From Bilabrum cf. latius (lineage: Eukaryota): a stretch of 64,000 nucleotides of DNA. Location of the stretch: contig OZ237737.1 of NCBI GenBank assembly GCA_965178125.1, forward strand, positions 806,001 to 870,000, written 5' to 3'. Made by a program: the position numbers and the translations under genes. Under the pieces are notes generated by a model. That model worked only from the letters and a program-made list of their open reading frames with translations, made no database searches and was not told the DNA's origin. Positions 35,691 to 60,000 of this stretch are shown piece after piece (position 1 is the first letter of the stretch; each line of letters starts with the position of its first letter).

Positions 35691-38600
35691 ATGCTATCAT
35701 TTGCCATCGCGTGCATCATGGCCGCTTGCGCCATGGCGCAATTGGTTCCAGACCAAACGCTCGGCTCCAAGCTGATCGACTTTTGGGACAGTGAGTCAAC
35801 AGTAAAGCGCTTGACGGCTGGCGTGGCCCTGTGGTTGCGAGAGGGGGCAAAGTTGCAGAGGAGGCATTTGGCACGCGCCGTCCAGCATATGTACATCTGG
35901 TAGTCCAAATGATCACAAGATTCCATAAATTTCGCAGCAACAAGCTTTAGTAAGACGAGAACGACGTACCCGTCGAGCTGGAAGAGCTGGAGGGGTCGCA
36001 CGCTGTCGCAGGTGAGCACCTACTTATCGCGCCCACGCACGCACGCGCACGCGCGCGTGCTCCCTATCGGAAAGTCAAGATCTGACCCTAACTTGCAATC
36101 ACAACGATGCCTTTGCAGTCAAATCGATTCAACCAACCCTATACCATGACAAGGCGGTTGATGTGCCAGCCGTGAGAGCAATACGGTGTTGCTTGTGACT
36201 CTTTCGTACGAGTGTTCCGTCAAGGCTTCGCGGTTTGCCTACCGCCACCATCCACCTTTTTACGCAGAGGTATGTTCTTCGACTGGTCTGGACGTGACTT
36301 CATGACCGCACCCAGTGATGCGCAGCTCGATTTCGCGAACATGGGAACGCACGTGAGTTTGCCGTGTCTCAAGTCCTGAGTTGTTGAGAAACGTCGCGTA
36401 CTGCCCAGAAAATCATTCACACGTTTGCTTTGTGTCAAGCTGTCACCGCAGGGACACATTATCTATATCGTCGGCAGTTCTTGGTACAGTGTGAACCGGG
36501 GCACCATGCTCCGGAAGGGTGAAGCCTTCAGGAGCGGATCTCGCCGCACGTACTGGGAGATGATGCAGTCAATTACCTCGTCGAACCGCCGATTCGCGTT
36601 CGTCGCGTCGTCTTCGAGGACTACGAGCATTCGTTACTCAGGAGCCACATCGCTACCAAACAACCCGTCGTCGGTGTCCTACAAGACATACACTGGGCAT
36701 GTCCAGGTGACTGACTACAGTTCAGGCGTAAGAGACCCATATTCTGATGCATCGCAGGGAAATAGGATGTATTTCTAAATGATTTTCTCAAAAATTGCTC
36801 TCGAAGATGGCTACCGCAGCTCCGCCGAACGTGGATTTACGCTGAGATCGATTTCAGCACGTCAAGTCGGTCCTTCGGGAACGTCGATAATGCGCGCAGT
36901 TGGTACTACTACATTGACCAAGCATCCTCAACATCATCATCCAACAAGGCCAACGTCCTGTCGAGTGGAAGCTCCTACCCGCTCCAGGTCGGAGCGAGCT
37001 TCAACGCATTCGAAGGAGTGATCATGGAGTTCGGGATCATGAACTCGACGAACTTCAATGATGAGAACCGCCTGCGCTCGTACCTCGCGAACAAGTGGGG
37101 CACCGGAGGCTGCCCTGCAGCAAACTCTATCACGAACGGACATGGGGTTGTCGCAACCACAAGCACGGACTACTGGTGCCGAGTGCCTTTCGAGAACAGG
37201 GACTGCACACAATCCTGCGCGTCTGGACAGGGCAAGCCGGTTGGCGGTGTAGCCACGAAGACATGCCAGAATGGCGTGTGGTCAACTCACGACTTGATCT
37301 GCGAGAAGACGTGCGAGATGACCGAGGGTCCCGCCTTCACCGCCGGCTGCTACCGCACCGTTGTGTCGGCCGACTTCAATGGCGACACGGCAAGCACCCT
37401 CTCGGGTCCGCTGCGCACCTTTCGCTTGTACCCACGCACGAACCCGGCACTTAACAGCGTCTACATGTCGACCACGACCGACGGCCGTCTCAAGGTGGAT
37501 CCTCGTGCCTGCACTTGGGCTACCGTGTTCTACGCCGAGGACAACCCAGCGTGGCTCGACACCGGCGACAGCCAGCAGGTGGTGACCGTGGAGGCCACCA
37601 TGCAGCTCGAGTGGGGCCGAGGTGGCCTGACCTTCAAGATGACTGACGACCGCACCAACTTCCGTGTCGACTACACGAACTACGGATCCACATGGTGGTA
37701 CCTTTACCTGATCATGCAGGTGAACGGTCGGTGGAACTATCTCGGCAACATCAACTCGTTCAGTCGGAACCTGCCGCCCATCTACGTGCCCCAGCGCATT
37801 GCTGATGCTCGTTTTAACGGCTTCCGCAACATCACCCTCACCCAATTCTTCGACGACGCCAAGGAGTAGGCTCGCCTTGCTGGTCACGACCAGAGGTACC
37901 CCGAGTTCATCATCCGTGCCCGCGTGAAGGCCCAAAATGTGCGTGTGTGGCTGCTGCCCCTGGATGCCACCCACGGCATGGCCAAGGAGGGCGCCACCTC
38001 GGACACCCATGAGGTGCGCAACGACATCGACAGGTACTACGGATATGATGGGCAGTTCTCGCCGCTGTGGGGACCTCAGAATGGCTACCGCAACAAGGAT
38101 GGTGATGATGCACCCGACAAGATCTTCACGGCCAACGAGGAAGAGACCCTGGACGACACGAAGCCTTTGTGGGAGTTCAACCGCAACGACATCCAGGCTG
38201 GCACTGCCGGCATGTACGTGTACGGCACTGCCTACTTCGACAACTATCGCGTCTCGACCTCATGCGGTGCTGGCAGGTCATGCCTGAACGTGCGAGGGTA
38301 CAAGGGCAACGGGTGCACGTGGGGCTGCGCCGAGGGCTTCCTGCCCAAGAACGTGTCCGAGCAGTCTGCCATGTGCAACCATGAGGGCAACGGAGAGGTA
38401 GCCTGGTCGAGCCAGGGCGTGCAGTGCAAGCTGATCCCGCCCACCTTTGACTCCAACCACCCGCCGCTTGAGGTCCGCGAGGACGCCAACGCAGACACCC
38501 CGATCGGGCTGCCCATCGCTGATTCCGTGACTACCAATGCATCCGATGCCATCACGCTCATCTACAACCTGACTGATGGCTACTAGGATGACAATGGCAA

Positions 38601-41600
38601 CACGCTGTTTTACATCAGCGGCTGCAGCGGTCAGGTGTACCTGGCTCGTGGACGCACCCTCGACTACGAGACAGACCCTGTCAAGTTCATCACGGTGCGT
38701 GCCACCCCCCTGCAGCAGCCCGAGCAGGGAGCCGAGTTCCGCATCCCAGTGTACCTTATCGACGTGGACGAGCCCCCGCTGTTCATTGAGCAGATGAACT
38801 TCACCCAGGCGATCCGGACTGTGCCCGAGAACGCTGCCCCTGGGTCTGCCTTCCCCGACGCGAAGCTGACGGCTATCGATCCTGAGGGTAAGGACGAGGA
38901 CACGGAGTACTCGATCTTCTCGATGGATCAGGACGCTGAGGTGGGTGGCCCCGACGGAGAGCCACTGTTCACGATCGACCCGGATGACGGCACACTGCAC
39001 GTGGGTCCTGCCGGCGGGCTGAGCTTCGAGCGCTTCAGCGAGTACAAGCTGCAGGTGCGGGCCACTTCGAAGGTGAACGCCGCTATCTTCTCCCAGATGG
39101 CTGTGACGATCCGCCTGGAAGACCGCAACGACGCCCCGATGTTCCCCGAGGACATCCAGGAGATCACGGCTCGCTTCTCGCAGCTGGCCGACATGGCCTG
39201 GATCGGCACCGACACGATCGCTGTGGAGGACGAGGACGTGAACTCGACTGTGTTCGTGCAGCTGCTGCAGAGCTCCACCGGAGTGGTGCATCGCGACCTT
39301 CCCGGGCCTGGCTCCGACATCACCCGCAAGAACTACGTGGGCATCGAGGGTGGAGAGCCTGGCAACGCCACCGCTGGTCGCTTCTACTGGACTGAGGCGC
39401 CCAACGCGACCGCCGATATCAGCTGGACGGACCAGATCTACGATGGTCAGTTTGTGCGCCTGGTGTACACCGTGAAGGTGAACGCCACTGACAACTACGG
39501 GGCCACGACGATCGGCGACGTGCGCATCATCCTGGTGTCCGACGAGAGCGGCGGCACTGACAGGCCGCTGGTGGAGTCCGTGACTATGCCGACTGGCACC
39601 GCCTTGACCACTTCTGGTGGCGAGACCCTGCGTTTCGCCGGATCTCGCTTCTCGCGGGCCACTGGCTTCCGTGTGGTGGGCACGAACGCGATCGGACGCA
39701 GGTACGAGACCACCAGCTGCACTGCGACCGATGACAACACCCTGGACTGCACGTCTCCCGAGGGCACTGGTTTGTGCAACTGGGTGGTGTACGCGATGGT
39801 GAACGGCGAGGAGATCCGCAGCTTTGCCATCGGGCGGATGGAGTTCACGTACCAGGCTCCCAACATCACGGCCGTGACCATGGATCAGGTGGCCATCAAT
39901 GCAGGTGGGCTGAACACCAAGGGCGTGGGCTCTGGGTCTTCGCATGAGCTGAACAGCAAGTTCGTAATCACTGGCACTGACCTGGGCAGCGACCCGCAGG
40001 CTGTGATGGTGTACGTGGGCCGGGTGACCCCTACCTCTAGCGAGTACCGGTTCGTGTCAACGTCGATCGAGAGCGCCGACCATGGCTCTCTGCTTGTGGG
40101 TGCCCCTGAGGGCATCGGTGCTGACCTTCAGATCCGGGTGTCTGTGGGTGGGCTCTTTGTCGATGCGCCCGACAGGCAGACCGTGACGTATGCTCCTCCT
40201 CGCGTGATCAGCCTGCGCTCTGGCATTACGAGCTCGTTCACGTACAACCACAACATGGAGCCGGAGGGGTGGTCGTGGGAGGCCGAGTACCAGACCAGGT
40301 ACGACCAGGAGATCGCCCGTGGCGACACTCATGAGCAGGCACATGCTGATGCTACCAGGTATGCTGACTCGAGGCGCATCTGGAACCGGTTCATCATCAC
40401 CGGCGAGAACTTCGGTCCCATGGAGGTGCTTGGAGCTGAGACCAGGCCGCTTGTGTACTTCGGCCCCGACTGCTCGAGGCAGTTTGAGCTGCTGAGCTGC
40501 GAGCTTACCCAGGCATCCACCCAGATCACGTGCGAGGGATACACGCGCGGTGCTGGCGCCCGGCACGGCCTCAGCGTGAGGATCACCGACAACACGAACG
40601 TGGTGCTTGCGCCTGACATCCTGTAGGACGAGCAGTGCAGCCACGAGGAGAGCACGCTGCCGTCGACCAACATCGTGTACCGGACCAGGTCGCTGTCGTA
40701 CAGGCCGCCCCAGGTGTACCAGCTCATCAACCCGCCTCAGCAGGGCAACACTGCCGGTGGCGATGTGGTGCGCATCCGTGGCCGGTACTTCGGCAACCCC
40801 AGCTCCGAGCTGCCCGTGACGGCGTACTACGGCCCTGACCCTGTCTACCGCTGGCCCAACTACCCCGGCGACCAGCTGAAGGCGACTGCCGGTACTGAGT
40901 CCATTGAGGCGTCCACCTGTGTGGTGCGCAGTGACGACATCATCGACTGCCAGATGGCAGCTCTGCCTGAGTGGATGGACGCCAACGGCCCGCATGCATG
41001 GACCGTGGAGGTGGGTGGCCAGGTGGCTCTGTGGAGCCGTGGCTTCACCCGGTACGGTTTCCCCACTGTGACTGGGCTGACCGGCGAGGGTGCTGTGCGC
41101 GCCAACACCACGGGTAGCCAGAAGGTGGTGATCGATGGCCGCAACTTCGGCCCCGTGGTACCTGACACGGTGAACTACATCGCGCAGGTGGCAGACCCGG
41201 GAGGCATGAACTCAACCTACGAGGGTCGCGTGAACGTGTCGCTGGCCCAGGGCCTGACCATGGCCCCTGCGCCCGCTCTGGGTGATGGCTCTGGCCTGGT
41301 GGTGCTGGACCCCCGTCGCGACTGCGTGATGACACAGGCGCACTACCAGCTGGAGTGCATGACCCTGCCTGGCGCTGGTCGCGCCCTTGAGTGGATCGTG
41401 GTGGTGAATGGTGAGCGGTCTCGCGTGCCCCAGGCATCGTACAAGGCCCCGACCGTGAACGAGATCATGATGCCCGGCACACCCACGGATCGTCGTGTGG
41501 AGGACGCTGATTCGGCTGGCGGCACCTGGGTGCTGGTGACTGGTCAGAACTTGGGCCCCCCCACCCGCGATATGTATGACCCCGAGCAGTCGTCCGGTGC

Positions 41601-44600
41601 GATGGTGCAGTGGGTGGAGTACGGCAAGACCGCGACTGGCGAGTGGAACAGCGCGCTGAACTACACGGTGATCTCCCATGAGCAGATCATGGTGCAGCTG
41701 GGCCCCGGCATCGGGCGTGACTTCCAGATTCGCGTGTCTGTGGCCGACCAGGTGAGCGAGGCGAGCGGTGACGGCGGCAACGACCCCCGCGGTACGTTCG
41801 ACTTCAGCCTGCCCACGCCGCTGTACGTGACCCCGAATGTGGGCAACCCCAAGCCCATGCCTTGGAACTCGGAGACCCTGGTGATGTTCGCCAGGCATTT
41901 GCCGCCGGCCAGCGACCCCACTTCCGCCGTGGTTGGCCTGTGGGACCCCAGCTTCCCCCCTCGCCCCGCCTCTCTGGATGATGACTCCATCCCCGATGAC
42001 GACGAGGGCAAGACTCAGGACCGCGAGCAGTACGAGCAGGCCGTGCGGAGCTACCTGGGCTCGCTGGTGCCCATCCATGCCGAGCAGCTGGTGAACGATA
42101 CCGCCGCTTGCGTGTTCGTGGACACCCTGGACCGCGGTACGGTGAACAACCTGTGGCAGCAGTACGATGTCGGTGGGAAGGTGGCTGGGTACCAGTCGGG
42201 CCAGGGCCTGCCCCTGGACGTAGGCGCTGTGCGTGTGGTGGTGCCTCCTGGATTCGGCCGGGGCCACGTGCTTGGCCTGGGCCTCGTGGGCATGGACGCT
42301 GCGACCGGCATGGTGGCTACAAACGCCGAGGTGGAGTCTCGGTCTGACTGGGAGAGCCTGAAGCAGTTCCACTACAATGAGCCGGAGCTGGACTTCCCCG
42401 AGATGACCACCGTGGCTGTGTCTGGCGACGATGAGCTCAAGCTACAGGCCACCCGTGCCTTCGGTGGACAGCCTTCAGAAGCTGATTCGTTCTCTCGCAA
42501 CATCTGGGAGGTCACGCTACGCGGCCAGAGGCTGTCGGACTGGTTCGAGCTGCTTCCCGACCAGGACGCCGGTGCCACGGAGACCCCGTACCGGCTGATC
42601 ACGCTGGAGCCCGGGCCGGATCACATGGAGCCTGTGCCTGGCGGGAACCCTGTGGCCGAGGGCCGCACGCTGATGTTCTACAAGGGCAACTTCGCCGAGG
42701 ACACTGCCGGTGGCAACGTGAGCGCTTCTGGTTGGGTCTCGCACGTGCAGCAGACGCAGCTGCCCGCTGATCAGCGGGAGTTCCAGCTGATCGCGTGGCG
42801 CGATGACATGATCAGGCTGTGGGTGCGCGCCGGCACCTTCACGGTGCGTGCTGTGGTGGAGACGACGAACAAGCTGGACGAGGTGAAGGGCACCGTGCCC
42901 GCCACCGAGCACACGTACACGACCAAGGACGTGGTGGTCTCTCAGGAGGCTCCCATCATCTCGGACCTCGTGGGCCAGCCCCCGGGCGGGTACCCCACGA
43001 CGGGCGAGGGGCACGTGCTAGGCCTCGCCTTGCCGTTCCGGTCGCTCACATCGCAGGACGAGAAGGGCGTGCTTGCGCTGTTCGGCAACGACTGTGACGA
43101 GGTCAACTACAACGACCAGCGGATGTGCAATGGCCGTCTGCTGAACCGCCGCCAGGTCACGACCAGCCCCATCACTGCTCCCGAGCCGGTGATCTACGCT
43201 GACCCCCTCACTGGTGTGACGTACGAGCCCGACACGACTCCTGGCGCCGAGTCTCAGTCTCGCTTCGTGACCGAGGGCAGCGGTGCTGCCACCTTCGTGC
43301 GCGCTGCCTGCGAGGCGTACTACCAGGCAACTACCTCAGCGGCACCTCAGCTGGAGGACCTGTGCTTCTTCTGGGTACGTGTGCCGGCAGGGCAGGGCCG
43401 TGCTGTGTCCGTGCGCGTGTATGCCGGCACCCAGCTGTCTCCCGCCGTGACCATCGACTACGCCGAGCCCGTGGTGACCGCCATCGAGGTGGATGGTACT
43501 GCCTTCGCCGGTACGTCGGCTGCCAACGCGGCCACGTTCCCGTCGACCGGTGGGGCCATCGTGCTTCAGGGCCACAACTTCGGCATGAAGGCCACCGTGA
43601 CATTCGGCGATTCGTACTCGCTGGTGGCGTGCAGCCAGGCTGCCATGACGAACAACTTCGTGGGCTTCAGCTCAAGCGACTGCGATGCCACCATCACCAT
43701 GGACTCTGCCACCTCCGGCATGGCTCGCATCACGGTGGATGCTCCTCGCGGCCAGGGCGCATACGATGAGCTGGTGCTGGTGGTGGACCACGGCCTGGGC
43801 CACGACTCTGACCCTGTGCGCTTCAAGTACGAGATGCCTATGATCTCGAGCGTGGTGCTGGCCACGGAAGATGCCGGGGATGTGGAGCAGTCCATGTTCG
43901 GATCTCTGGGAGCCCGCGATGTGGAGGTGGGCCAGGACAGTCAGGGCAACCCCTTCACGAACGGATACCGCATGCCCACCACTGGCATCGACCTGGATGA
44001 CCAGCACTACCAGGCTCTGGACAGGTATGGCGTCAAGGCAGATCTGTGGATCGTGATCCGCGGGTCGGGTCTCGGCCAGTACCACCCCCTGGTGTACCCC
44101 GTGGACGAGTCAGCGCGCGTGTACATCGGGCGCAACGATGCCGCCGGCGAGATAGAGGTGGACAGCATGTACGTGGTGCGCGACATCACGACTGAGGGCG
44201 CGGGTGAGTCTCTGATCGCCGTGCCTCTGCCCGAGGGCGGTGGTGCCGACTACTACGTGCGCGTGGTGGTAGCAGGCCAGGAGTCCAACGTCTACACGGG
44301 TGCGTTCAGCTATGCCCGGCCCGTGATCCAGTCTGTGGAGGTGATCACGTCTGCCATGAGCGATGGCTCGCTGCCCGCCGTGTCGAGCAACTCCCTGACT
44401 GTGTCTGCTCAGACCCTGTCTTTCAGTAGCTCTGGCGGATTCCTGGAGGCGCCCCCCACGGGAGGTGCTGTGGTGCGCATCCGTGGGCGCAACTTCGGCC
44501 GCCAGGTGCTTGCCCAGGCCGACTCGCAGGGCCGCGAGACCGGCAAGGTGCAGTGCGCGTTCCTGAGCCACATCGACCCTCCCCCAAGCTGGGTGCCTAC

Positions 44601-47600
44601 CTCTGGTGCCAGGCCCATCCCCACGTGCGATGGTGCCGAGACGTACATGGGCGAGGGCGAGGCCTTCACGAACAGCACTGACCCGTCTAGCCCGAGTCCC
44701 CAGTCCGTGACGTGGAGCCACACGACCGTGGAGATGACCATCCCCGAGGGCATCGGATACCGTGTGGTGCTGCTGGCCGCTCGTGGTGGCGCACTGGCCT
44801 CTCTGGAGCCGCAGGCATCGACCTTCACTCCTTCGGGTGTGATCATCCCTGGATGGAACGATCCAGACACGACACCTGCCTTGGTGCCCCGCGCCGTGCC
44901 TCTGCGGTTCGCGCCTCCTCAGCTGAGCGGCCTGACGTACTACGTGCCCGAGGGCGAGGCCACTGGCGAGGACGTGGGCGAGGATGCACTGACTCGCATG
45001 AGCGCCGCACATACTCGCGGATCGACCGTGGTGCTGGAGGGCCGCAGCTTCGGCCCCGACACCGTACTGGACGAGCTGACCAACTCGGAGACCGAGGACG
45101 TGTTCCAGGAGCTGGCCCAGCCGCGCAGCCTGCCTCTGGGTGCCGCGCACCGTGCGCCCATGGACCATGTGCGTGTGCTTGTCGGTGGTGGCTGCCGCAC
45201 GGACAGCATGGAGTGGTCTGCGACGAGTGTGGACGTGCGCCGCGACGTGGTGGACGGGCTGATCCCTGCCCATTGGGCTGCCGAGGACGAGGTGATCCAG
45301 GAGGTGCGCAGCTGCATGCCTCGTGGCGTGGAGGAGCGCACTGACACGAGCATGCGTGTGGTTGTGCCGCCTGGTGTGGGAGCCAGCAAGCAGGTGTCTG
45401 TGGAGGTGGTGCGCGCTGCACCTCTCCGCCTGAGTCCGTCTCTGGTGGTGCCCATGTCGCAGGCACCCCCCCTGTCGTCGTCCAGCTCTGGCTCATCCAT
45501 GGTGACGTACGAGTACCGTGACCCGGAGCCCACCCGTGTGGATCCTGGCTACATGTACATCACGAACTCTGCCCAGATCGGAGCCGCTGCCGAGCCCGAG
45601 GACATCGTGGTGTTCGGACGGTATCTGGGCCGCTTCGAGGACGAGCGGTCTGTGCGCAGGCCTGCGAACGATTCGTTCCAAAACGTGCGGTACGTGCAGG
45701 ACGGTTGGAACCTGGAGCTGGCCATCAACGTGACCAGCATGTACACTCAGGACGACCTTGAGTTCGACATCGGCGCGCCTGAGGGCGAGGCAGCCGAGGG
45801 CAGGCGTCTGCAGGTGACCGAGAACGCCACGCTGGCGATGCACGTGAACTGCTCCGACGTGGTGGCCCGTGTGGAGAAGGGCCAGGGAGGCCGCGGGCAG
45901 CCCGAGGCGTGGGAGGATGCCATCCGGTGCCCCACGCTTCGTACCGACCTGCTGACCGCCGGTCCCAAGGCTGTGAGCGTGCGCGTTGGCTCGCTGGAGG
46001 GCGAGCTGTCGGCCGAGAGCTCGAACAAGCTGATCGTGGGCTGCGACTTTGGGTACTTCGGTGGTGTGGGCGAGACGTGCCTGCAGTGCCCTGTGACCCG
46101 TCAGGGCGAGATGGTGGGTGCCATGTGCGCCGGCTACGACTCTGAGACTGACTCGCACACGTACCCGGTGTCTCGCCGTGGCTGGTACGACCTGAAGACC
46201 CCTGATGAGCTGTCCATCTGCCCCGTGACTGGCGGGCAGCGCGGCGATGAGGTGGCTCGTGGTGTGTGCGTCGTACCTTGCGTGCCCGCCGAGGCTTGCA
46301 TGGGCGACAACACGTGCGCCGAGGGCTACGAGTCTAAGGCTCCTTCGTTCAGGTGCGCCGCGTGCGCCGAGGGCTACTACAAGAAGGCCGGCGTGTGCGC
46401 CAAGTGCCCCGACAACCCGTGGGTGGTGATCGTGGCGTTCATCATCGCTGCTGCCTGCGCCGGTGGCATGGGTCTGTGGCTGAACTCGACCAACATCAAC
46501 ATCGCCATCCTGTCGATCGGTGTGGACTGGTTCCAGGTGGTGTCTCTGTTCGCCAACGCCCGCATCAAGTACCCGCCTGTGCTGGACGACCTGCTGACGT
46601 ACATGTCTGCGTTCAACCTGAACATCTCCCTTGCCGTGCCCGAGTGCATCAGCCCGAACGTCGGGTGGGAGCAGAAGTTCTACTTCACCATCGCATTCCC
46701 GCTGGCCGTTGGCGTCATGCTGTTCCTTGCTTTCGCCAGCTTCGCGCTGTACAAGTACCTGGTGCTGGGCCGCAGCGACAAGCACTCTACTTTCTCGCAT
46801 GTGAACAAGCTGATCTCTGGCGGCATCATCGTGTGCTACTTCCTGTACCTGTTCGTGACTGCCACGCTGATGGAGGCGCTGAACTGCATCAAGGTGGACG
46901 ATTCGGATCCGAACACGTACATGCTGGTGGGTGACCTGGAGCCATGCTACGAGCCCGGGGGGCTGCACATGCGTGTGTTCCCTATCGCCATTGTGTTCAT
47001 GCTGTTCTACACGTTCGGCTACCCCGCCATCCTGGGCTACGTGCTGTGGAGCAACCGGGAGCGCATCATGGAGGACCAGCTGCTGCGCGCCAAGGGCCTG
47101 GGGTACGACCGCATCAGCAACCCCCGCGCGTACGATCTTCGCAGGTCGATCGAGCGGTCGTACTTCGCGTTCCGTCCCGAGTACGCCGCCGGCACGATGG
47201 GCTTCAACTCTTGGATCGTGGTGATCCTGGCCCGCAAGGCACTGATCGCCATCACTTCGCTTGTGTGGGCGAACAACTCGTCGCTGCAGCTGTCCGTGAG
47301 TCTGCTTGTGCTGCTGTGCGCGTACGCCATGCAGGTGTACCACCAGCCGTACATGGCCCCTGCCGACCGCGAGGAGACTCTGCGCCATACCATGATTCTG
47401 GCCCTGGAGGACGAGCACAGCATCTGGGCCAAGCTGCAGAAGAACGTGAAGGAGGTGGAGAAGCGCCTGCAGAAGACCGGGCAGAAGACCGACTGGTCGC
47501 GCCCGAACCAGTCCGTGCGATACTCGAACCCCGTGGCCCAGGCCATGGGCTCCGTGGCCGTGGGCATGTTCTCGTGGAACACGCTGGAGTCGGGCCTGCT

Positions 47601-49069: not shown

Positions 49070-52000
49070 ATGCAAATTCCTGAAACGCACGCGGCCCTCG
49101 CTGTCACATTTCTGATGCTGGTGGTGCTGTGGTCCAGTGACGTATTCGGTGCACCATCGATGGCATCCGCCGTGCTGAGCGGGAAACAGTCTGGTTCCAT
49201 GCATGCTGTTGAGACTATCATTTTGGGTGGCGGTCCAGCAGGCGTACAGTAGGCATTCTATATGCATGCGTCGTCGCGTCCGTATATGCTACTTGAAAAG
49301 CAACAGCACCTTGCATGGTTTTTCAGCCACTATCCAAAGTTTAGGAAGCTGATTAGCATAAACAAGAGATACACGACACGTGAGGAACCTGAATTTGAAC
49401 TTCGCCACGACTGGAACTCGCTGCTGCAAGACTTACCAGTTGGCACTAACCGGCATGAGCGTGATCATTCCGAGCCAGTGCTCAGCCAAACGTTCAGTTT
49501 TAGTGACGATTAGAAGCGCTTGGAATCTCTTCTTCACGATGGAAGTATGGGCCAGCTAGAGGTGGGATCCGATCACTCAGCAGCCTTCGAAGCAGCAGGA
49601 GTCCCACTGCTTTGGAATGGATCCTCAATCAATGGCCAAGCTGCGCCTCGTGTACTGATGAGACACATGAGCAAGGAGTTTTATCCTCACGCTGATGATA
49701 TGGCACGATATATCTAGCTATTTGCAGAGCGATACCGTCTGAATGTGGCCTACGGTGCCAGCGTTGAATCAGTCGCGAGCCTCCACGGGCAAGCAGCAAC
49801 TGCGGCGCGAGACCAAGCACGTCTCGATTGGATGCCTCGGTTTGAGCTTCTTCTTGAGAACGGCTCGGCGGCATCCTTCCCCAATGACCCCGGTATCACG
49901 CCGACCATCCGGAGGTTCGTCTGCAGGCACCTGGTGGTCGCAACCGGACTGAGCGAAGGCCACCTGAGCCCCGCCCACTCGGGACTGGCCAAGCACGGCA
50001 CCCGGTACGACGAGCTTAGCAGCAACCCTGACGAAGAATTCGAAGGGAAGCGCGTTCTCATCGTTGGCCGCGGCAACGCAGCCTTCGAGGTGGCCGACAA
50101 CGCCCTCCGCCGAGCGAGACAGGTGCACGTGCTCGGCCGCAAGACAGGAAGGGTCAGGCTCGCGTGGGAGACGCACTACCCGGGTGATGTGAGGGTGACT
50201 CACGCGGCGCTGCTCGAGACGTACATGCTCAAGAGCCAGGACGGCATGCTGGAGGCCAGCAGCAGCAGCGGTGCAGTGCTGTGCAGGGACGATGCCACTG
50301 GGCTGCTCACTTTAGACGAGAGGGGCTCGTGCGCCCATCATGACTCGCAGGGAGACCTGAAGCAGTACGACAAGGTTGTTCTGTGCTTGGGCTGGCGATT
50401 TCAAGAGGATCATTTCAGGCGCGGTGGGATGAGGCTTGGGATGGGAGGGCAGGTCGGCTGGAAGCGGCGGCAGGTACTTGCCCGAGCGATGCGGAACGAG
50501 GGGAGGGGACCAGGCCTGCTTGACACTGCCGCGAGCGATCCGCTCAACCTGCTGCCCCGGCGCCGTGGGTCTTTGGTAGGGTAGCAGCAATCAAACAGCG
50601 AGATGAGCGCAAGAGACGGTAGCCATGAGGCTACAACCGGCGCCTCGGGTGTACATGAGGACGACGATATGCATGGTACGGGCACCGAGCTTGACGATGA
50701 TGCAAGCACTCACCACGCAGATGCACGAATTGCGTTCGACGGACGCGGCCTGGTCTGGCGCTCGCCACAGGGACGACAAAAGTACCCCCCTATCGTGCCT
50801 CATGGCAAGTACCCTACTATGGACGGTGTGTTCAGGAGCCCGAAATACGCTGGCCTCCGGTATGCTGGCACTCTGATGCACGCGGGAGACTGGAGGGTTG
50901 CAAGCGGTGGGTTTGTTCACGGGTTCAGGTATTTGATTCGGGCTCAGGACCGGGTCATGCAGGAGGAAGCAGAGCACTCGCCGCAGGCGTGGCCTCGCAT
51001 GCGTCTGCAAGGGTTCGACTCCATACTGTATGCAATTAAGCGAAGGCTGCTTGTGGGTTCTGGCCTGTATCAGATGTTTGGTCAGCTGCAAGATGTCGTG
51101 CTCCTTGACCTTGACAGCCAGCTGTGGGGCGGCCCAGCCAATTCATGGGACGGACCGCCCAAGGACGCAGAAGCGATCCTGCAGCTTCTCGCCGAGGGGC
51201 GCTATCCTGACAGTGAGGACGAATCCCTTAGCAGTGTTGGTCAGGTATGTCGCCCTGAGATCGCGAGCCAGCTGTTGCAACACTTGCGCGGCACTCTGAA
51301 GCCGTCACCTGCCTCAATGGGTGGTTGGACGGACGATGTGGAGGAGGATGGGAAAAGTCGCAAGCCTGAGCCGGACAAGGCCTCTGTCTGGGACCCCAGC
51401 CATCACGACACTCCCGAATATCTGGCAAGGATGCCAAGCGACTTGTAGCGCGCAGCTGGAGGGTTCTTGTTCGAGGAGGTGCCCGTGCGATAGCTGCACC
51501 TGCTCGCCAGGAGGTGGTCCTTCCAACTGCAGGCGTGCGCGAGAGCAGTCTCGTGCGGCAGTGCGGCGGGAGCTGAGGGCTAGGTGTCCTGCAAGCGGAG
51601 CGGCCCTTCTCCAGACGGGCATTCCGTGTACGCGTCCGTCTCACTCGAATACGGGAGTGGCGCGAAACGGTAGAGCGCAGCAGCCGATTAGTCGGACGTG
51701 TTCTCTCTGCACCGGGCCACATTTAGCCATGATGACGCTACTATGGGCCGTTTCCTGCACCCTGTAGTCCGCGTGTTTGTCTCAGGACACCACACGCACG
51801 GTTTCACAGGCGACTACCATCGCAGCCCACATGGTGACGTGCTCCGTATGGCTCGAAGGCGCGCTGAAGGAGAGCTGTTTGGCATACGACACGACGACAG
51901 AGAGGACACCGCCTGGCAGCAGGGCGATCGCGATAAGCCAGCTGCGTCTACCAGCTTCCCGCCACCCGTTTCTGATGCTCCCTTGCTTGTGGCAGAGGTG

Positions 52001-53824
52001 CACGTGTCTGAGGATTTCAACGCGGAGTTCGTTCACATGGAGCCCTACGGCATGCAGATCGCGAGAGCGATACATGCAGGCGTGTCAACGCTGGTCAAGT
52101 CAGCAGCAGCCGCGAGGGTCGGAGAGATTGGCGCCGGGCTAGCTGCAGCCAAGATGGTGCAACATGTCCTGAACAATTAGCTGCGAAAGCAATTGCTGCC
52201 TCTTTTGGGCGGCGGTGTGGAGCTGACAGAAGGAGACACAGCCAGCACCGGAGCAGGCGTATTGGAGGGCACTACTAGCGGAAGGACGCCGTTGATGGAT
52301 GCAGGTCCTCTCGGCATTATGTCAGGGCTAGCGGCTGCAAGCGATGCAAGCCTGGTTCTTGCAGGTGCACTGCTTGATGGCTCTTCTCCTAGGCACCTCG
52401 AATCGTCAAGGGCAGCTGCCTACGACGCTTCGAGGTCGGTGGGAGCCGTGCTTCGAAGGTCCATGCAGCGCTTCGAGTGGTCCGTGAGGAGGCATTTACT
52501 GCCCGACCTGGCAAGGCGGCTTCCGGCTCATTTGCTGCCCCCTTCGCTGCCTGGCATCGATGATATCGCGCAGGACCACGCAAGCGGTGACGGGATGCCT
52601 GCACATGCAGGGGGGCACTCCACGGGTGGTGACCCGCACGAGAACGGCCTGGAGGAAGCGAGAGAGGCGTTGTATGTAGCTGTGCAGCACGAAAAGGCAA
52701 AGGAAGAAGAAATTCGCGGAAGCAGTCCGAGTCGCCGTGGTAGAGGTGAATCGCATGACCACAACCAGTTGCGCTACCCTGATGATGACCGGTACGATGA
52801 GTATCCCGCCGACGCCCCTGCCACACTGGACCGCGAGCTGCATGATGTGGACCGCGTCTGGAGCCGCCCGCCCAACTGGACCCTCTCTGGCAGCCATAGC
52901 GACGGTGGTCCTGGCTTTGGCATGGGACGCGGGCGCACGCGATCGCAGCTTCATCGGCCGGAGCAGGTGCACGTGCCCTCGATGTCGCGGGACTGGCTCG
53001 CAGGGGAGTTGGCGGCCGACTGGCTCAGCTGCGCCCTGAGGCATAGCCTGGCGGCTGTTTTGTGGGCGGAGGTGGGAGTGCATCGCACGAACGTGTCGAT
53101 CACGCCGGACCTCCGTTGGGCCGCCACAGGTGACGGCGGCAGCATCTCCCGCCCTGTGCAGGACCTTCTCCATGGACTGTGGCCCTCAAGTGGGATGCAG
53201 CTGCATGTGTGGCTAGATGAACCCTTGGACTACTCGTCGTTCAACCAGGGTGCGCGGGGGCTGGCGGCTCTGGAGGAGTCCATCCACTCGATGAGGCTCG
53301 GCGCCGCGGGCGAGCACGAGGCTGTGGAGCAGCTGCTCGAGCTGATCCGTGCGACGTCAGGGGTGCCCGTGGTCATAACTTCGCGGCATGCTTTGCATAC
53401 GTGTCCGTAGTACCCCTTCAAGCCCCCTTCTGCAACGAGGGATGCGGAGCTTTCAGGCAACAAGCGGCCTGCGGGTGGTAGCCGGTTTGCGGTCCGACTT
53501 GTCGACTTGTGGCAGCCTTGGCCTGGCAGTGGCACAGATGGAGCGTGTGATAACATGGAAAGGCATGCTGGGCGTGCGGCCGCGGAAGAATATATCGTGG
53601 AGGATGCGTCTTTGGCCCCCGCTCACGGCGTGGGACCCGACCACGGAGTACCGGAGCATGGGGCTCCAAAGGTGAACCCAGCGGGCGCATGCCTTGGCGC
53701 ACACGGAAGTAATCGCCCTGGAGACTAGACAGGCAGCGTAATTAGCAGAAGCATGTTGCATGTACGGGCATGGACAGGGCCCACCGAAGCAACGCGGCAA
53801 ATAAGGAAGCTAATCCGGAGCTAA
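49070..53824 (+). CDS. FOXRED2: FAD-dependent oxidoreductase, FOXRED2/ERFAD-like, with long C-terminal extension
   Basis: Signal-peptide-like start; ILGGGPAGVQ; YPKFRKLISINKRYT..EFELRHDWNSLL; VLIVGRGNAAFEVA; RLAWETHYPGDVR; SGGFVHGFRYLIRA; LYQMFGQL; FLHPV; HVSEDF. One uninterrupted frame with 12 in-frame TAG (49250, 49511, 49715, 50582, 51446, 51491, 51581, 51671, 51689, 52178, 53408, 53726), ending TAA 53822-53824. Confidence 0.88.
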
Positions 53825-54019
53825 AACTAACTTGCGACCAACTATACCTTGATCCGATCCGCAATTTTTTGGAGCAAACCGGGCAAGAAACATTTTTCGG
53901 CCGCCTCTGGTTGTCGTAAGCGCGGTTCTTCGCTGCGTTTTCGCTTCTCTGGGTAGTTTGTATATAAATAAGTTACATCTCTTGGCTTGATCCCCTTGAA
54001 AAGCTTTGGTTTCGGCTCA

Positions 54020-57000
54020 ATGCTGAGAATGACCGCTGGACTTGCGCTCGCCGCCACGCTAGTGGCGGCTGCGTTCGCTCAGTTGGTCCCAGACAAGGCT
54101 TTAGGAAGCAAGATGGTTGATTTTTGGGACAGTGAGGACTTTGGGTGCTGTGAAAGCTCTGGAAATATGGTATTTGCTGCGAGAATTTCGAGATACGGTT
54201 GAATCGGAACTTGAGTCTGCGAACGGCCAATTGCAATTCTACCCTTTTTCGTGACATTTCGCAGCGACGAAGTTCTCCAAGACTAGTACTCAGTACCCTT
54301 CCACATGGGAGAGCTGGAGGGGCCGCACTATGTCTTAGGTGAGTAGATTGCCTCGAATGAGATGCATCTCGGTGCTCGGCAACATCGCTCATGGTCGTGG
54401 TGATGCTTTCCTTGCCATTTGTGTCGCAGTCGAACTCCCGCAATCGCCCCCGCACCTACACGCGTCGTTTAAATTGCCAACCGTAAGTTACTTGGGCGAA
54501 GATTGCTGAATGCCTCGCACAATGTTGCTATACTGCCTCAAGTGAACCAATGTTCCTGTGGGCGTCACGGTCGGTTTCGATTTTTCATCGCCCAATAGAA
54601 CGAATGGTTTAATGATTATCTGAATCAATAATTAATTTTCGTCTCTCTCGCAGGGGCATGTTTTTCGATTCGTTAGGCAACAAGTTCATGACAACCCCAA
54701 GCGACGACCAACTGGATTTGAAGGGTTCCGGTTAGCATGTGAGATTGGTCGCTTGATTCGCGCTTGAGCAGCTAAGCCAATGAATGTTTTCAGATTTGTG
54801 TAGATTTGATATGTACTATACTGTGCCGGCTTATATTCGCAGGGGCACATCATATATGTGGTCGGAAGTTCGTGGTACTCCACTACGCGAGGCACCATGC
54901 TGCGCAAGGGCCCGCCTGTTGGTGCTCGACGCACTTACTGGGAGATGTTCCAGCAGCTCTCGACGTCTAGCCAGCGTTTTGGCTTCGTGGCGTCCTCTGC
55001 CTACACAACTAATGCGCGTTACACGGGGGCCCAGACCCTGCCCAACTCCCCAAGCTCGGTACAGTACCATGTGTACATGGGCAGGATTTGGGTGCGCCAG
55101 TACACCGGCGGAGTGAGTTGAGCTCAAGCACATCCCATCGCTTTTACTTTTTCTTTGCTTTTTAATGTATTTGACACTGCTCAATGCCCGTCTGTCCTTC
55201 TCGCAGAGGCGGTACACGTACATTTACGCTGAGATCGATTTCAGCACGTCAGGCCTCCAGTACGGTGGCGTTGACTACGCCGGAAGCTACTACTACTACA
55301 TCTACCAGCCGTCAGCATCTACCACGGACCAAGCACGCACTATCTCAAGCGGAAGTTCGTACCCTCTGCAGGTGGGCGCGTCCTACCGCGGGTTCGAGGG
55401 CCTAATGATGGAGTTTGGGATCATGAACTCGTCGTCCAGCACTGATGAGAACCGGCTGCGTTCGTACCTCGGCACCAAGTGGGGCACCGGAGGCTGCCCT
55501 CCAGCTGACGCTGTCACAAACGGTCATGGGATTGTCGCTACTACTAGCTCGGACTACTACTGCCGAGTGCCATTCGAGAACAGGGAATGCTCCCAGGCGT
55601 GCGCGTCTGGCAAGGGAAAGCCCGTGGGTGGAGTGGCTACCAAGACATGCCAAGACTCCCAGTGGACCTCCCACGACCTGATCTGCGAGAACACTTGCGA
55701 GATGACCGAGGGTCCCGCCTTCACTGCCGGCTGCTACCGCACCGTTGTGTCGGCCGACTTCAACGGCAATGACGTGCTAAATGGCCCAATGCGCACCTTC
55801 CGCCTGTTCCCTCGGACCAGTTCTGCCCTGACTGCCGCATACATGTCTGCCTCTTCCGACGGCCGACTGAAGATGGACCCTAGGCAGTGCACTTACACCA
55901 CCGTCTACTACGCCGAGGACAACCCAGCGTGGCTCGACACCGGCGACAGCCAGCAGACTGTGACCGTGGAGGCCACCATGCAGCTCGAGTACGGCTACGG
56001 TGGCCTTGCATTCAAGATGACCGATGAGCGCACCATGATGCGCGTGCAGTACACCTACTACGGATCCACATGGTGGTACCTTTACCTGATCATGCAGGTC
56101 GGTGGCAGGTACACGTATCTCGGCAGCATCTACTACTACACTCGTGATAAGCCCCCGATCTATGTGCCCCAGCGCATTGCTGATGCTCGCTTCAACGGCT
56201 ACCGCAACATCACATTCGAGCAGTTCTTCGACGATGCCAAGGAGCAGGCTCGCCTTGCTGGTCACGGCAACCGCCACGCTGAGTTCATCATCCGTGCCCG
56301 CGTGAAGGCCCAGAACGTCAAGGTGTGGCTGCTGCCCCTGGATGCCACCCACGGCATGGCCAAGGAGGGCGCCACCTCGGACACCCATGAGGTGCGCAAC
56401 GACATCGACAGGTACTACGGATATGATGGGCAGTTCTCGCCGCTGTGGGGACCTCAGAATGGGCTTAGGAACAAGGATGGTGATGATGCACCCGACAAGA
56501 TCTTCACGGCCAACGAGGAAGAGACCCTGGACGACACGAAGCCTTTGTGGGAGTTCAACCGCAACGACATCCAGGCTGGTACTGCCGGCATGTACGTGTA
56601 CGGCACTGCCTACTTCGACAACTATCGCGTCTCGACGTCTTGTGGTGCCGGCAGGTCATGCCTGAACGTGCGAGGGTACAAGGGCAACGGGTGCACGTGG
56701 GGCTGCGCCGAGGGCTTCCTGCCCAAGAACGTGTCCGAGCAGTCTGCCATGTGCAACCATGAGGGCAACGGAGAGGTAGCCTGGTCGAGCCAGGGCGTGC
56801 AATGCAAGCTGATTCCGCCCACCTTTGACTCCAACCACCCGCCGCTTGAGGTCCGCGAGGACGCCACCGCAGACACCCCGATCGGGCTGCCCATCGCTGA
56901 TTCCGTGACTACCAATGCATCCGATGCTATCACGCTCATCTACAACCTGACTGATGGCTACTAGGATGACAATGGCAACACGCTGTTTTACATCAGCGGC

Positions 57001-60000
57001 TGCAGCGGTCAGGTGTACCTGGCTCGTGGACGCACCCTCGACTACGAGACGGACCCTGTCAAGTTCATCACAGTGCGTGCCACCCCTTTGCAGCAGCCCG
57101 AGCAGGGAGCCGAGTTCCGTATCCCGGTGTACCTTATCGACGTGGACGAGCCCCCGCTGTTCATTGAGCAGATGAACTTCACCCAGGCGATCCGGACTGT
57201 GCCCGAGAACGCTGCCCCTGGGTCTGCCTTCCCCGACGCGAAGCTGACGGCTATCGACCCTGAGGGCAAGGACGAGGACACGGAGTACTCGATCTTCTCG
57301 ATGGATCAGGATGCTGAGGTGGGTGGCCCCGACGGAGAGCCACTGTTCACGATCGACCCTGATGACGGCACGCTGCACGTGGGTCCTGCCGGCGGGCTGA
57401 GCTTCGAGCGCTTCAGCGAGTACAAGCTGCAGGTGCGGGCCACTTCGAAGGTGAATGCCGCTATCTTCTCCCAGATGGCTGTGACGATCCGTCTGGAAGA
57501 TCGCAACGACGCCCCGATGTTCCCCGAGGACATCCAGGAGATCACGGCTCGCTTCTCGCAGCTGGCCGACATGGCCTGGGTCGGCACCGACACGATCGCT
57601 GTGGAGGACGAGGACGTGAACTCGACTGTGTTCGTGCAGCTGCTGCAGAGCTCCACCGGAGTGGTGCATCGCGACCTGCCCGGGCCTGGCTCAGACATCA
57701 CTCGCAAGAACTACGTGGGCATCGAGGGTGGAGAGCCTGGCAACGCCACCGCTGGTCGCTTCTACTGGACTGAGGCGCCCAACGCGACCGCCGATATCAG
57801 CTGGACGGACCAGATCTACGATGGTCAGTTCGTGCGCCTGGTGTACACCGTGAAGGTGAACGCCACTGACAACTACGGGGCCACGACGATCGGCGACGTG
57901 CGCATCATCCTGGTGTCCGACGAGAGCGGCGGCACTGACAGGCCGCTGGTGGAGTCCGTGACTATGCCGACTGGCACCGCCTTGACCACGTCTGGTGGCG
58001 AGACCCTGCGTTTCGCCGGATCTCGCTTCTCGCGGGCCACTAGCTTCCGTGTGGTGGGCACGAACGCGATCGGACGCAGGTACGAGACCACCAGCTGCAC
58101 TGCCCCCGACGACAACACCCTGAACTGCGCAGCACCCGAGGGCACTGGTCTGTGCAACTGGGTGGTGTACGCGATGGTGAACGGCGAGGAGATCCGCAGC
58201 TTTGCCATCGGGCGGATGGAGTTCACGTACCAGGCTCCCAACATCACGGCCGTGACCATGGACCAGGTGGCCATCAATGCAGGTGGGCTGAACACCAAGG
58301 GCGTGGGCTCTGGGTCTTCGCATGAGCTGAACAGCAAGTTCGTAATCACTGGCACTGACCTGGGCAGCGACCCGCAGGCTGTGATGGTGTACGTGGGCCG
58401 GGTGACCCCTACCTCTAGCGAGTACCGGTTCGTGTCAACGTCGATCGAGAGCGCCGACCATGGCTCTCTGCTTGTGGGTGCCCCTGAGGGCATCGGTGCT
58501 GAGCTGCACATCCGGGTATCTGTGGGCGGGCTGATCGTCGATGCGCCCGACAGGCAGACCGTGACGTATGCTCCTCCTCGCGTGATCAGCCTGCGCTCTG
58601 GCATCACGAGCTCGTACACGTACAACCACAACATGGAGCCGGAGGGGTGGTCGTGGGAGGCCGAGTACCAGACCAGGTACGACCAGGAGATCGCCCGTGG
58701 CGACACTCATGAGCAGGCACATGCTGATGCTACCAGGTATGCTGACTCGAGGCGCATCTGGAACCGGTTCATCATCACCGGCGAGAACTTCGGTCCCATG
58801 GAGGTGCTTGGAGCTGAGACCAGGCCGCTTGTGTACTTCGGCCCCGACTGCTCCAGGCAGTTTGAGCTGCTGAGCTGCGAGCTTACCCAGGCATCCACCC
58901 AGATCACGTGCGAGGGATATACGCGCGGTGCTGGCGCCCGGCACGGCCTTTCTGTCACGATCACCGACAACACGAACGTGGTGCTTGCGCCTGACATCCT
59001 GCAGGACGAGCAGTGCAGCCACGAGGAGAGCACGCTGCCGTCGACCAACATCGTGTACCGGACCAGGTCGCTGTCGTACAGGCCGCCCCAGGTGTATCAG
59101 CTCATCAACCCGCCTCAGCAGGGCAACACTGCCGGTGGCGATGTGGTGCGCATCCGTGGCCGGTACTTCGGGAACCCCAGCTCCGAGCTGCCCGTGACGG
59201 CGTACTACGGCCCTGACCCTGTCTACCGCTGGCCCAACTACCCTGGTGACCAGCTGAAGGCGACTGCCGGTACTGAGTCCATCGAGGCGTCCACCTGTGT
59301 GGTGCGCAGTGACGACATCATCGACTGCCAGATGGCAGCTCTGCCTGAGTGGATGGACGCCAACGGCCCGCATGCATGGACCGTGGAGGTGGGTGGCCAG
59401 GTGGCTCTGTGGAGCCGTGGCTTCACCCGGTACGGTTTCCCCACTGTGACTGGGCTGACCGGCGAGGGTGCTGTGCGCGCCAACACCACGGGTAGCCAGA
59501 AGGTGGTGATCGATGGCCGCAACTTCGGTCCCGTGGTGCCCGACACGGTGAACTACATCGCGCAGGTGGCAGACCCGGGAGGCATGAACTCGACCTACGA
59601 GGGTCGCGTGAACGTGTCGCTGGCCCAGGGCCTGACCATGGCCCCTGCGCCCGCTCTGGGCGATGGCTCTGGCCTGGTGGTGCTGGACCCCCGTCGCGAT
59701 TGCGTGATGACACAGGCGCACTACCAGCTGGAGTGCATGACCCTGCCTGGCGCTGGTCGCGCCCTTGAGTGGATCGTGGTGGTGAATGGTGAGCGGTCTC
59801 GCGTGCCCCAGGCATCGTACAAGGCCCCGACCGTGAACGAGATCATGATGCCCGGCACACCCACGGACCGTCGTGTGGAGGACGCTGATTCGGCTGGCGG
59901 CACCTGGGTGCTGGTGACTGGTCAGAACTTGGGCCCCCCCACCCGCGATATGTATGACCCCGAGCAGTCGTCCGGTGCGATGGTGCAGTGGGTGGAGTAC

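What the first reader, a model, noticed from the sequence alone, without database searches (positions are those of the whole stretch)
36009..59004. Internal control: TAG and CAG interchange at three aligned sites between the two paralogues, in both directions
Seen: A 37867 AAG GAG TAG GCT versus B 56245 AAG GAG CAG GCT. A 40624 ATC CTG TAG GAC versus B 59002 ATC CTG CAG GAC. In reverse, A 36009 CTG TCG CAG|gt versus B 54336 ATG TCT TAG|gt. A fourth TAG is shared (38584/56962). TAG thus behaves like a synonymous variant of the Gln codon CAG, which identifies the amino acid without any database.
Basis: seen in the sequence. Interest (0 to 1): 0.9.

Follow-up and report, generated by a model that had tools for sequence, protein, structure and literature searches.

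The report
TAG codon read as glutamine
In this protist DNA the usual stop signal TAG sits inside working, expressed genes and trades places with the glutamine codon CAG between gene copies, which shows that the organism reads TAG as glutamine.

Summary
All four quoted sites are in the sequence, in frame, in two tandem paralogues that are 96% identical over 8.8 kb. Spliced transcript contigs from two runs confirm the exon structure of copy A. They carry all four of its TAG codons unchanged.

Reading TAG as sense lengthens the longest ORF from 7.2 to 16.7 kb. Reading TAA as sense changes nothing. Across the paralogues and three metagenome relatives, 8 of 12 distinct TAG sites pair with CAG. One pairs with GAG and none with TTG, TGG, TAC or AAG. 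An empirical likelihood puts Gln about 14 log10 units ahead of the next residue.

In pantothenate kinase, TAG sits where all 19 non-animal homologues examined have Gln. One site conflicts: homologues have Leu or Met at 49250.

All 8 gene ends seen are TGA or TAA. This is the known code type UAG=Gln with UAA and UGA as stops (NCBI table 15). The organism is GC-rich, has introns and is unidentified. No tRNA or eRF1 could be examined.

The parts
35691..48489 (+). Gene A. Exons 35691-35790, 35938-36011, 36119-36171, 36268-36352, 36452-36727 and 36820-48489, ending in TGA. It encodes a giant protein of 4085 residues with IPT/TIG domains, DUF7630 and C-terminal membrane-spanning segments.
   Evidence: GT..AG joints in X1 and X2 contigs. 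The spliced frame is open with 4 TAG. Pfam hits TIG and DUF7630. The membrane-spanning segments are read by eye from the translation, not predicted by a tool.
36009..36011 (+). CAG, the last codon of A's exon 2. It pairs with the TAG at B 54336.
37867..37869 (+). In-frame TAG in A. It pairs with the CAG at B 56245.
   Evidence: It is unchanged in X1 record 2 and X2 record 20.
38584..38586 (+). In-frame TAG in A, shared with the TAG at B 56962.
   Evidence: It is unchanged in the transcript contigs.
40624..40626 (+). In-frame TAG in A. It pairs with the CAG at B 59002.
   Evidence: It is unchanged in X1 record 3 and X2 record 22.
47836..47838 (+). In-frame TAG in A, in the context PDEL[TAG]TLPEQ. 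It pairs with CAG in the relatives L001 and L003.
   Evidence: It is unchanged in X1 record 5 and X2 record 24.
54029..64000 (+). Gene B, the paralogue of A, which runs off the window. Homology model of exons: 54029-54131, 54265-54338, 54430-54482, 54654-54738, 54843-55112, 55207 onward.
   Evidence: Only the joint 55112>55207 is seen in RNA. The modelled frame has 3126 codons, no TAA or TGA, and 3 TAG.
54336..54338 (+). In-frame TAG at the end of B's exon 2. It pairs with the CAG at A 36009.
54733..54735 (+). It pairs with ACG at A 36347, in a diverged region with insertions and deletions.
56962..56964 (+). In-frame TAG in B, shared with A 38584.
56245..56247 (+). CAG in B opposite the TAG at A 37867.
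59002..59004 (+). CAG in B opposite the TAG at A 40624.
18505..35214 (+). Open frame of a giant protein with cadherin, IPT/TIG and DUF7630 domains, ending in TGA. The start of the coding sequence was not determined. It holds 21 TAG in the stop-to-stop frame, 19 of them after residue 330. The TAG at 29410 lies on a conserved Gln. The TAG at 32335 pairs with CAG in A and L001.
48941..53824 (+). Flavin-monooxygenase-like gene ending in TAA, with 14 TAG in the frame. The TAG at 49250 is the one site where homologues have Leu or Met.
   Evidence: An X1 contig covers 49063-53302 collinearly.
4536..6767 (-). Pantothenate kinase (Fumble) gene ending in TAA. The TAG at 4755-4757 (residue 671, SNNIG[TAG]VAYL) lies on a Gln that is invariant outside animals.

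Best explanation
The window is nuclear DNA of an intron-bearing eukaryote of about 60% GC whose genetic code reads UAG as glutamine. UAA and UGA remain the terminators. This is the pattern of NCBI translation table 15.

TAG is therefore a rare synonymous Gln codon. Between the tandem paralogues A and B, and between them and related organisms, it drifts to and from CAG by single C/T transitions, like any synonymous pair. TAG is scarcer in the highly expressed gene A (4 of 4085 codons) than in the weakly covered monooxygenase gene (14 in a 1627-codon frame). That pattern fits a less favoured codon.

Shown here: TAG is in frame in expressed, spliced, selectively constrained genes; it aligns with Gln codons; TAA and TGA end the genes.

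Inferred, not shown: decoding by a tRNA-Gln with anticodon CUA, and a release factor eRF1 that no longer recognises UAG.
For: 1. TAG is a sense codon.
- Reading it as sense raises the longest ORFs from 7212 and 7036 nt to 16710, 11742 and 8884 nt. Reading TAA as sense leaves the maximum at 7212 nt.
- Five genes totalling 13,479 codons hold 39 internal TAG and no internal TAA or TGA.

2. The TAG-bearing genes are expressed and constrained.
- X1 and X2 contigs skip five GT..AG introns of A and carry its four TAG with no differing letters at those places.
- A/B exon 6 has pN/pS = 0.27.

3. The residue is Gln.
- Partner codons at 12 distinct TAG sites in A/B, L001, L002, L003 and the giant paralogue are 8 CAG, 1 ACG, 1 GAG, 1 ACC and 1 GTG.
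- Empirical likelihood over the 11 pairwise observations gives Q -8.29, next A -22.81, and L -42.74.
- The PanK TAG aligns with Q in 9 of 9 nearest-clade rows, 5 of 5 other protists and 5 of 5 plants, and with S in 7 of 7 animals. Over all 120 homologues the column is 59 Q and 61 S.
- The TAG at 29410 in the giant gene aligns with Q in every HSP of 4 of 4 homologues.

4. Terminators.
- Seven window genes end in TGA (4) or TAA (3), and the L003 gene ends in TGA. None of the 8 ends in TAG.
- The PanK TAA lies where the nearest homologues end.

5. Relatives share the code.
- The L001 and L002 frames have no TAA or TGA and 2 TAG each.
- Database fragments P0295 and P0158 (85% identical) stop exactly before window TAG positions.

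6. The base after TAG (T5 A9 G13 C12) resembles that after CAG, so there is no special context.
Against: - At FMO 49250 (GGGPAGVQ[TAG]A), 130 homologues have L 58, M 31, A 10, V 8, I 8, T 6, S 3, F 2, C 2, W 1 and Q 1. This site fits Leu or Met better than Gln.
- Four of 12 partner codons are not CAG. ACG and GTG are in gappy or diverged stretches. ACC in L002 is in a well-aligned context, at 69% overall identity.
- The closest protein-only relative of the FMO gene (P0143, 85% identical) has E at TAG 52178. More distant relatives have K, E, R, A, Q and S, K, Q at eight other TAG sites.
- Columns from the window's own cadherin and IPT repeats are too variable to decide.
- At three of the sites counted as CAG partners, the distant giant paralogue has GCC, GCA and CGT in a poorly aligned tail.
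- No tRNA was found in the window or the loci. No whole genome is held. So the decoding machinery is unseen.
- X1 and X2 have no library type on record, and the tool guesses X1 is 'probably DNA'. That they are RNA rests on the intron-skipping joints and on the more than 50-fold depth difference between neighbouring genes.
- Only 8 gene ends were seen. Occasional use of TAG as a terminator cannot be excluded.
Confidence: 0.88

Rival explanations
1. TAG is a sense codon but stands for another amino acid. Candidates are Leu (as in the rhizarian exLh), Glu, Lys, Ser or Thr.
For: At FMO 49250, homologues have L or M in 89 of 130 rows and Q in 1. P0143 has E at 52178, and P0285 and P0204 show K, E, R, A and S at seven TAG sites. 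B 54733 pairs with ACG and L002 codon 429 pairs with ACC, both Thr codons.
Against: None of the 12 partner codons is a Leu, Lys, Ser, Tyr or Trp codon; 8 are CAG. The likelihood ranks Q -8.29 against A -22.81, T -23.62, E -30.89, K -35.53 and L -42.74. The PanK site has no L, E or K in 120 homologues. The IPT site at 29410 is Q in 4 of 4 homologues. The E/K/R partners are the usual replacements for Gln.
Confidence: 0.05
2. TAG has a double meaning. It is read as Gln inside genes but still ends translation in some contexts, as in Condylostoma-type codes. Alternatively it is a leaky stop read through by a near-cognate tRNA-Gln.
For: Only 8 gene ends could be inspected. TAG is rarer in the highly expressed gene A than in weakly covered genes. 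Neither the tRNA nor eRF1 was seen.
Against: None of 8 genes ends in TAG. There are 39 internal TAG in 13,479 codons, including 19 in one protein, which would abolish the product if readthrough were only partial. The base after TAG does not differ from that after CAG. TAG positions are conserved in relatives.
Confidence: 0.05
3. The TAGs are not translated as such. The copies could be pseudogenes, the TAGs could be assembly or sequencing errors, or the mRNA could be edited from U to C to restore CAG.
For: B is barely covered in the transcript contigs. X1 and X2 have no library type on record.
Against: The same TAGs stand in contigs of two runs from two studies, with no differing letters. In-frame TAGs also stand in independent metagenome contigs. 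The transcripts keep T, so there is no editing. Frames of 4085 and more than 5200 codons have no other stop, and pN/pS is 0.27.
Confidence: 0.02

Closest known systems
Iotanema spirale (Fornicata): nuclear UAG=Gln with UAA and UGA as stops (Pánek et al. 2017, PMC5304391; passages read)
   Same: Only UAG is reassigned, and to Gln. UAA is kept as a terminator. In both cases the evidence comes from in-frame UAG at conserved Gln positions.
   Different: Iotanema is an endobiotic metamonad known from a transcriptome. Here the DNA is about 60% GC and carries roughly 100-nt GT..AG introns. Its pantothenate kinase falls in a clade that holds only unnamed environmental sequences. No Iotanema sequence was compared here.
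Ciliates with UAG=Gln only: Hartmannula sinica, Trochilia petrani, Protocruzia tuzeti (McGowan et al. 2024, PMC11687900; passages read)
   Same: The code is the same as NCBI table 15.
   Different: That ciliate genomes are AT-rich with very short introns is recalled, not tested here. The window's composition, its introns and its giant cadherin/IPT genes do not suggest a ciliate. The best named match of the giant gene is a Cafeteria roenbergensis protein at 30-33% identity.
Rhizarian exLh (UAG=Leu) and Scotinosphaera (UAG=Ser)
   Same: UAG is decoupled from UAA, and UAA and UGA are kept as stops.
   Different: The amino acid differs. Leu and Ser score 34 and 26 log10 units below Gln here.
UAR=Gln codes (table 6: many ciliates, Ulvophyceae, Hexamita, Streblomastix, Amoeboaphelidium)
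   Same: A stop codon is reassigned to Gln.
   Different: TAA is not a sense codon here. There is no internal TAA in 13,479 codons, three genes end in TAA, and reading TAA as sense lengthens no long ORF.

Membership tests
UAG=Gln nuclear code (NCBI table 15 pattern) | In-frame UAG in expressed, constrained protein-coding genes | tested here: met
   39 internal TAG in 13,479 codons. Spliced contigs carry A's four TAG. pN/pS is 0.27.
UAG=Gln nuclear code (NCBI table 15 pattern) | UAG positions correspond to Gln in homologues and paralogues | tested here: met
   8 of 12 distinct sites pair with CAG. The PanK site is Q in 19 of 19 non-animal rows. Site 29410 is Q in 4 of 4 homologues. Likelihood: Q -8.29 against -22.81 for the next residue. 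One conflicting site, 49250, has L or M in homologues.
UAG=Gln nuclear code (NCBI table 15 pattern) | UAA and UGA still terminate, and UAG is not used as a terminator | tested here: met
   Eight gene ends: 5 TGA, 3 TAA, 0 TAG. The PanK TAA coincides with the ends of homologues. The sample is small.
UAG=Gln nuclear code (NCBI table 15 pattern) | A tRNA-Gln with anticodon CUA | not testable with these tools
   No tRNA in the window or in L001-L003. No Rfam match. No whole genome is held.
UAG=Gln nuclear code (NCBI table 15 pattern) | eRF1 altered so that it no longer recognises UAG | not testable with these tools
   No eRF1 gene lies in the window, and no genome is held.
UAR=Gln code (table 6) | UAA is also a sense codon | tested here: not met
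   No internal TAA in 13,479 codons, and 3 genes end in TAA.
UAG=Leu code (rhizarian exLh type) | UAG aligns with Leu | tested here: not met
   None of 12 partner codons encodes Leu. L scores -42.74 against Q -8.29. Only site 49250 fits Leu.
Ambiguous stop/sense codes (Condylostoma type) | The same codon also terminates at gene ends | tested here: inconclusive
   None of 8 gene ends is TAG, which is too few to exclude rare use.

The most novel reading that the evidence does not exclude
The window comes from a eukaryotic lineage in which UAG=Gln with UAA and UGA kept as stops has not been described. The lineage is GC-rich, has introns and is not a ciliate. It may be a stramenopile, judging from the Cafeteria-like cadherin/IPT giant proteins. 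That would be an independent origin of the rare decoupling of UAG from UAA. Transcripts of close relatives (95-99% identical) lie in one seawater metatranscriptome run and one algae-metagenome RNA run. Public protein catalogues cut this lineage's proteins at every TAG.
Probability: 0.4. Interest if true: 0.75.

Novelty: new member of a known kind. Interest (0 to 1): 0.62.

Why it matters
Nuclear codes in which UAG and UAA have different meanings are few. The passages read in PMC11687900 and PMC5304391 name about a handful of lineages. Another, non-ciliate case in a GC-rich genome would add an independent data point on how UAG becomes decoupled from UAA.

There is also a practical consequence. 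Standard-code gene calling breaks this organism's genes. Database fragments P0295, P0158 and P0143 begin or end at the window's TAG positions. Its proteome is therefore mis-annotated wherever table 1 or 11 was used.

On its own it separates Gln from the next residue by about 5 log10 units.

Tried and rejected
- No whole genome is held for the window.
- One search failed because one protein exceeded the length limit. It was repeated in two halves.
- HMMs were built from the window's own repeats, giving 30 cadherin and 22 IPT domains. Columns at the TAG sites were too variable. Q was the top residue at one match column (7 of 15). At the cadherin column that holds two TAG sites, Q came second (D 10, Q 7 of 28). 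T was the top residue at several others. This was not used as evidence.
- No tRNA was found by ARAGORN in the window or the loci, and there was no Rfam match.
- The stretch downstream of L003 is not syntenic with the window and gave no conserved gene.
- Naming the organism failed:
  - The PanK tree puts the window in a 100/99-supported clade of 10 rows that are all unnamed.
  - The best named match is a Cafeteria roenbergensis protein at 30-33% identity, and only for the giant cadherin/IPT gene. This is a weak lead to stramenopiles, not a placement.
No habitat is inferred from them.
- Parts of the stretch without cover in X17 and X18 are not evidence of anything.
- Four literature searches found no paper describing UAG=Gln in a GC-rich non-ciliate marine protist. 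Further lineages listed there would have been missed.
Full report
**Observation.**
- 37867 TAG against 56245 CAG
- 40624 TAG against 59002 CAG
- 36009 CAG|gt against 54336 TAG|gt
- TAG shared at 38584 and 56962

The two copies align from 36829-45622 to 55216-64000 at 96.14% identity over 8808 columns. Upstream they are much more diverged, with several short exons.

**TAG is a sense codon here.**
- Under table 11 the longest stop-to-stop frames are 7212 and 7036 nt. With TAG read as sense they become 16710, 11742 and 8884 nt. With TAA read as sense the maximum stays at 7212 nt.
- In five genes totalling 13,479 codons there are 39 internal TAG. The only TAA (1) and TGA (3) are the terminal codons.
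- Seven genes in the window end in TGA (4) or TAA (3), and none ends in TAG.
- The TAA of the pantothenate kinase gene lies where its nearest homologues end.

**Expression and gene models.** Contigs of runs X1 and X2 come from two studies and have no library type on record. They skip five GT..AG introns of copy A: 35790>35938, 36011>36119, 36171>36268, 36352>36452 and 36727>36820. They also skip one intron of copy B, 55112>55207.

With these exons the coding sequence of A is 4085 codons plus TGA, with four in-frame TAG and no other stop. A fifth TAG in the raw frame, at 36763, lies in intron 5.

The contigs that cover 37867, 38584, 40624 and 47836 show no differing letters at those places in either run. 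So the mRNA keeps UAG, and there is no U-to-C editing.

In X1, depth over A is 295-2192. Over the neighbouring monooxygenase gene it is about 18, and over B it is 0-1.6.

Caveat: the tool guesses that X1 is 'probably DNA'. I read both runs as RNA because of the intron-skipping joints and the large depth contrast between adjacent genes.

**Codon-by-codon comparison of A and B.** B's 5' exons were modelled by homology. The model gives 3126 codons with no TAA or TGA and three TAG.

Five aligned pairs involve TAG. The fifth is new: B 54733 TAG against A 36347 ACG. It lies in the diverged 5' part, where 51 of 194 codons are identical, against 2663 of 2931 in exon 6.

In exon 6 there are 154 synonymous and 112 non-synonymous codon differences, with pS 0.088 and pN 0.024. 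First-position C/T differences number 4 synonymous (all TTG/CTG), 2 non-synonymous and the 2 TAG/CAG pairs.

I built partner-codon tables from the A/B alignment itself. They give Gln log10 L = -2.55 against -7.77 for Thr, the next residue, with the ACG site included.

**Relatives from elsewhere.** A scan of metagenome contigs found three loci:
- L001: 87% best-segment identity to A, residues 2713-3830 of P0001 (the raw frame 36748-48489)
- L002: 68%
- L003: 80%

L001 and L003 are 99.5% identical over 215 shared residues, so they count as one taxon. Their frames have no TAA or TGA but do have in-frame TAG: 2, 2 and 1.

The pairings are:
- L001 TAG codon 595 against A CAG and giant-paralogue CAG, in the context VGWE[Q]KFYF
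- L001 TAG codon 861 against A CAG
- A TAG 47836 against L001 and L003 CAG
- L003 TAG codon 275 against A CAG
- giant-gene TAG 32335 against A and L001 CAG
- L002 TAG codon 167 against A GAG, in poor context
- L002 TAG codon 429 against A ACC, in good context
- giant-gene TAG 32608 against GTG, in a gappy stretch

Over 12 distinct sites the partners are 8 CAG, 1 ACG, 1 GAG, 1 ACC and 1 GTG. No partner is TTG, TGG, TAC/TAT, AAG, TCG or CAA. At three of the CAG sites the distant giant paralogue has GCC, GCA or CGT, in a poorly aligned tail.

The empirical likelihood over the 11 pairwise observations gives Q -8.29, A -22.81, T -23.62, E -30.89, K -35.53 and L -42.74.

**Conserved columns.**
- Pantothenate kinase (4536-6767, minus strand; Fumble E = 3e-104). 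It has seven TAG in its frame. Six lie in insertions that homologues lack. The seventh, SNNIG[TAG]VAYL, faces 59 Q and 61 S among 120 homologues. Q is found in 9 of 9 rows of the window's own clade, 5 of 5 other protists and 5 of 5 plants. S is found in 7 of 7 animals.
- Giant gene TAG 29410, VRVGG[TAG]AS. It aligns with Q in every HSP of 4 of 4 homologues, including two Cafeteria roenbergensis proteins.
- Monooxygenase-like gene, searched against 1.84 billion representatives (1492 hits). Results are mixed. At TAG 52178 the 85%-identical fragment P0143 has E. A 47% relative has K, E, R, A and Q at five sites, and a 43% relative has S, K and Q at three.
- Monooxygenase TAG 49250, GGGPAGVQ[TAG]A. 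The 130 homologues have L 58, M 31 and Q only 1. This is the one site that argues against Gln and for Leu or Met.

Two fragments end exactly before window TAG positions: P0158, and P0295 from the giant-gene search. P0143 begins just after one. This fits relatives that carry TAG at the same places and were cut there by standard-code gene calling.

**Mechanism.** The pattern is UAG=Gln with UAA and UGA as stops, as in NCBI table 15. The expected machinery is a tRNA-Gln(CUA) and an eRF1 that does not recognise UAG. Neither could be examined. There is no tRNA or Rfam match in the window or loci, and no genome is held.

The base after TAG is distributed like that after CAG, so no special context is needed. 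TAG is rarer in the highly covered gene A (4 TAG, 152 CAG, 5 CAA in exon 6) than in the weakly covered monooxygenase gene (14, 37, 17). This suggests a less favoured codon, as was reported for UAG in the rhizarian exLh (PMC5304391, passages read).

**Comparison with what is known.** According to passages read in PMC11687900 and PMC5304391:
- UAG-only reassignment to Gln is known in Iotanema spirale, Protocruzia tuzeti, Hartmannula sinica and Trochilia petrani.
- UAG=Leu is known in the rhizarian exLh and some ciliates.
- UAG=Ser is known in Scotinosphaera.

The code type is therefore known. The organism here could not be named. Its PanK falls in a 100/99-supported clade of ten rows, all unnamed. 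The homologues nearest to A are unnamed. The best named match of the giant gene is a Cafeteria roenbergensis protein, at 30-33% identity over about 3000 residues.

At about 60% GC, with roughly 100-nt GT..AG introns, the DNA does not look like a ciliate or a fornicate, but no sequence from those groups was compared directly. Four literature searches found no description of such a case. The library is incomplete and supplements were closed.

**Verdict.** TAG is a glutamine codon in this genome (confidence about 0.88). This is a new member of a known kind unless the organism proves to be an already described lineage.

Noticed in passing
window 35691-36820 versus 54029-55207: The 5' exons 1-5 of A and B are far more diverged (51 of 194 codons identical) than exon 6 (2663 of 2931). 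The break sits at the start of exon 6. This suggests either gene conversion that homogenises the long exon or a partial duplication.
   Followed up: partly
window 49250-49252: This TAG lies in the FAD-binding motif GGGPAGVQ[TAG]A of the monooxygenase-like gene. There, 89 of 130 homologues have Leu or Met and only 1 has Gln. It is the one site at odds with TAG=Gln.
   Followed up: partly
window 9800-14458 (-): This EFL1/EF-G-like GTPase gene has very long Ala/Gly/Ser-rich insertions in a stretch of about 71% GC, well above the window's average of about 60%.
   Followed up: no
window 48489: In both X1 and X2 a contig departs from the window immediately after gene A's TGA stop, with the same 30 loose letters. 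Other contigs continue along the window. There may be a second 3' end, an allele or a further paralogue (table 7).
   Followed up: no
window 54843: An X2 contig that lies on B's exon 5 carries 37 loose letters upstream. By eye they resemble B's exon 4 but are not identical to it, and they seem to have a Thr codon where the window's B has TAG 54733. This may be a further copy or a strain variant (table 7).
   Followed up: no
window 4536-6767 (-), residues about 445-640: Five of the seven TAG in the PanK frame cluster in an insertion of about 200 codons that 113-118 of 120 homologues lack. It has no TAA or TGA, so it is probably coding, but an in-frame intron is not excluded.
   Followed up: no
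proteins P0295, P0158, P0143: Public protein fragments 85% identical to window proteins start or stop exactly at the window's TAG positions. Standard-code gene calling has cut this lineage's genes in the catalogues.
   Followed up: partly
window 2-3685 (-), 18505-35214, 35691-48489, 54029-64000: Four giant surface-protein genes with cadherin and/or IPT/TIG domains fill most of the 64-kb window. Three of them lie head to tail on the + strand.
   Followed up: partly
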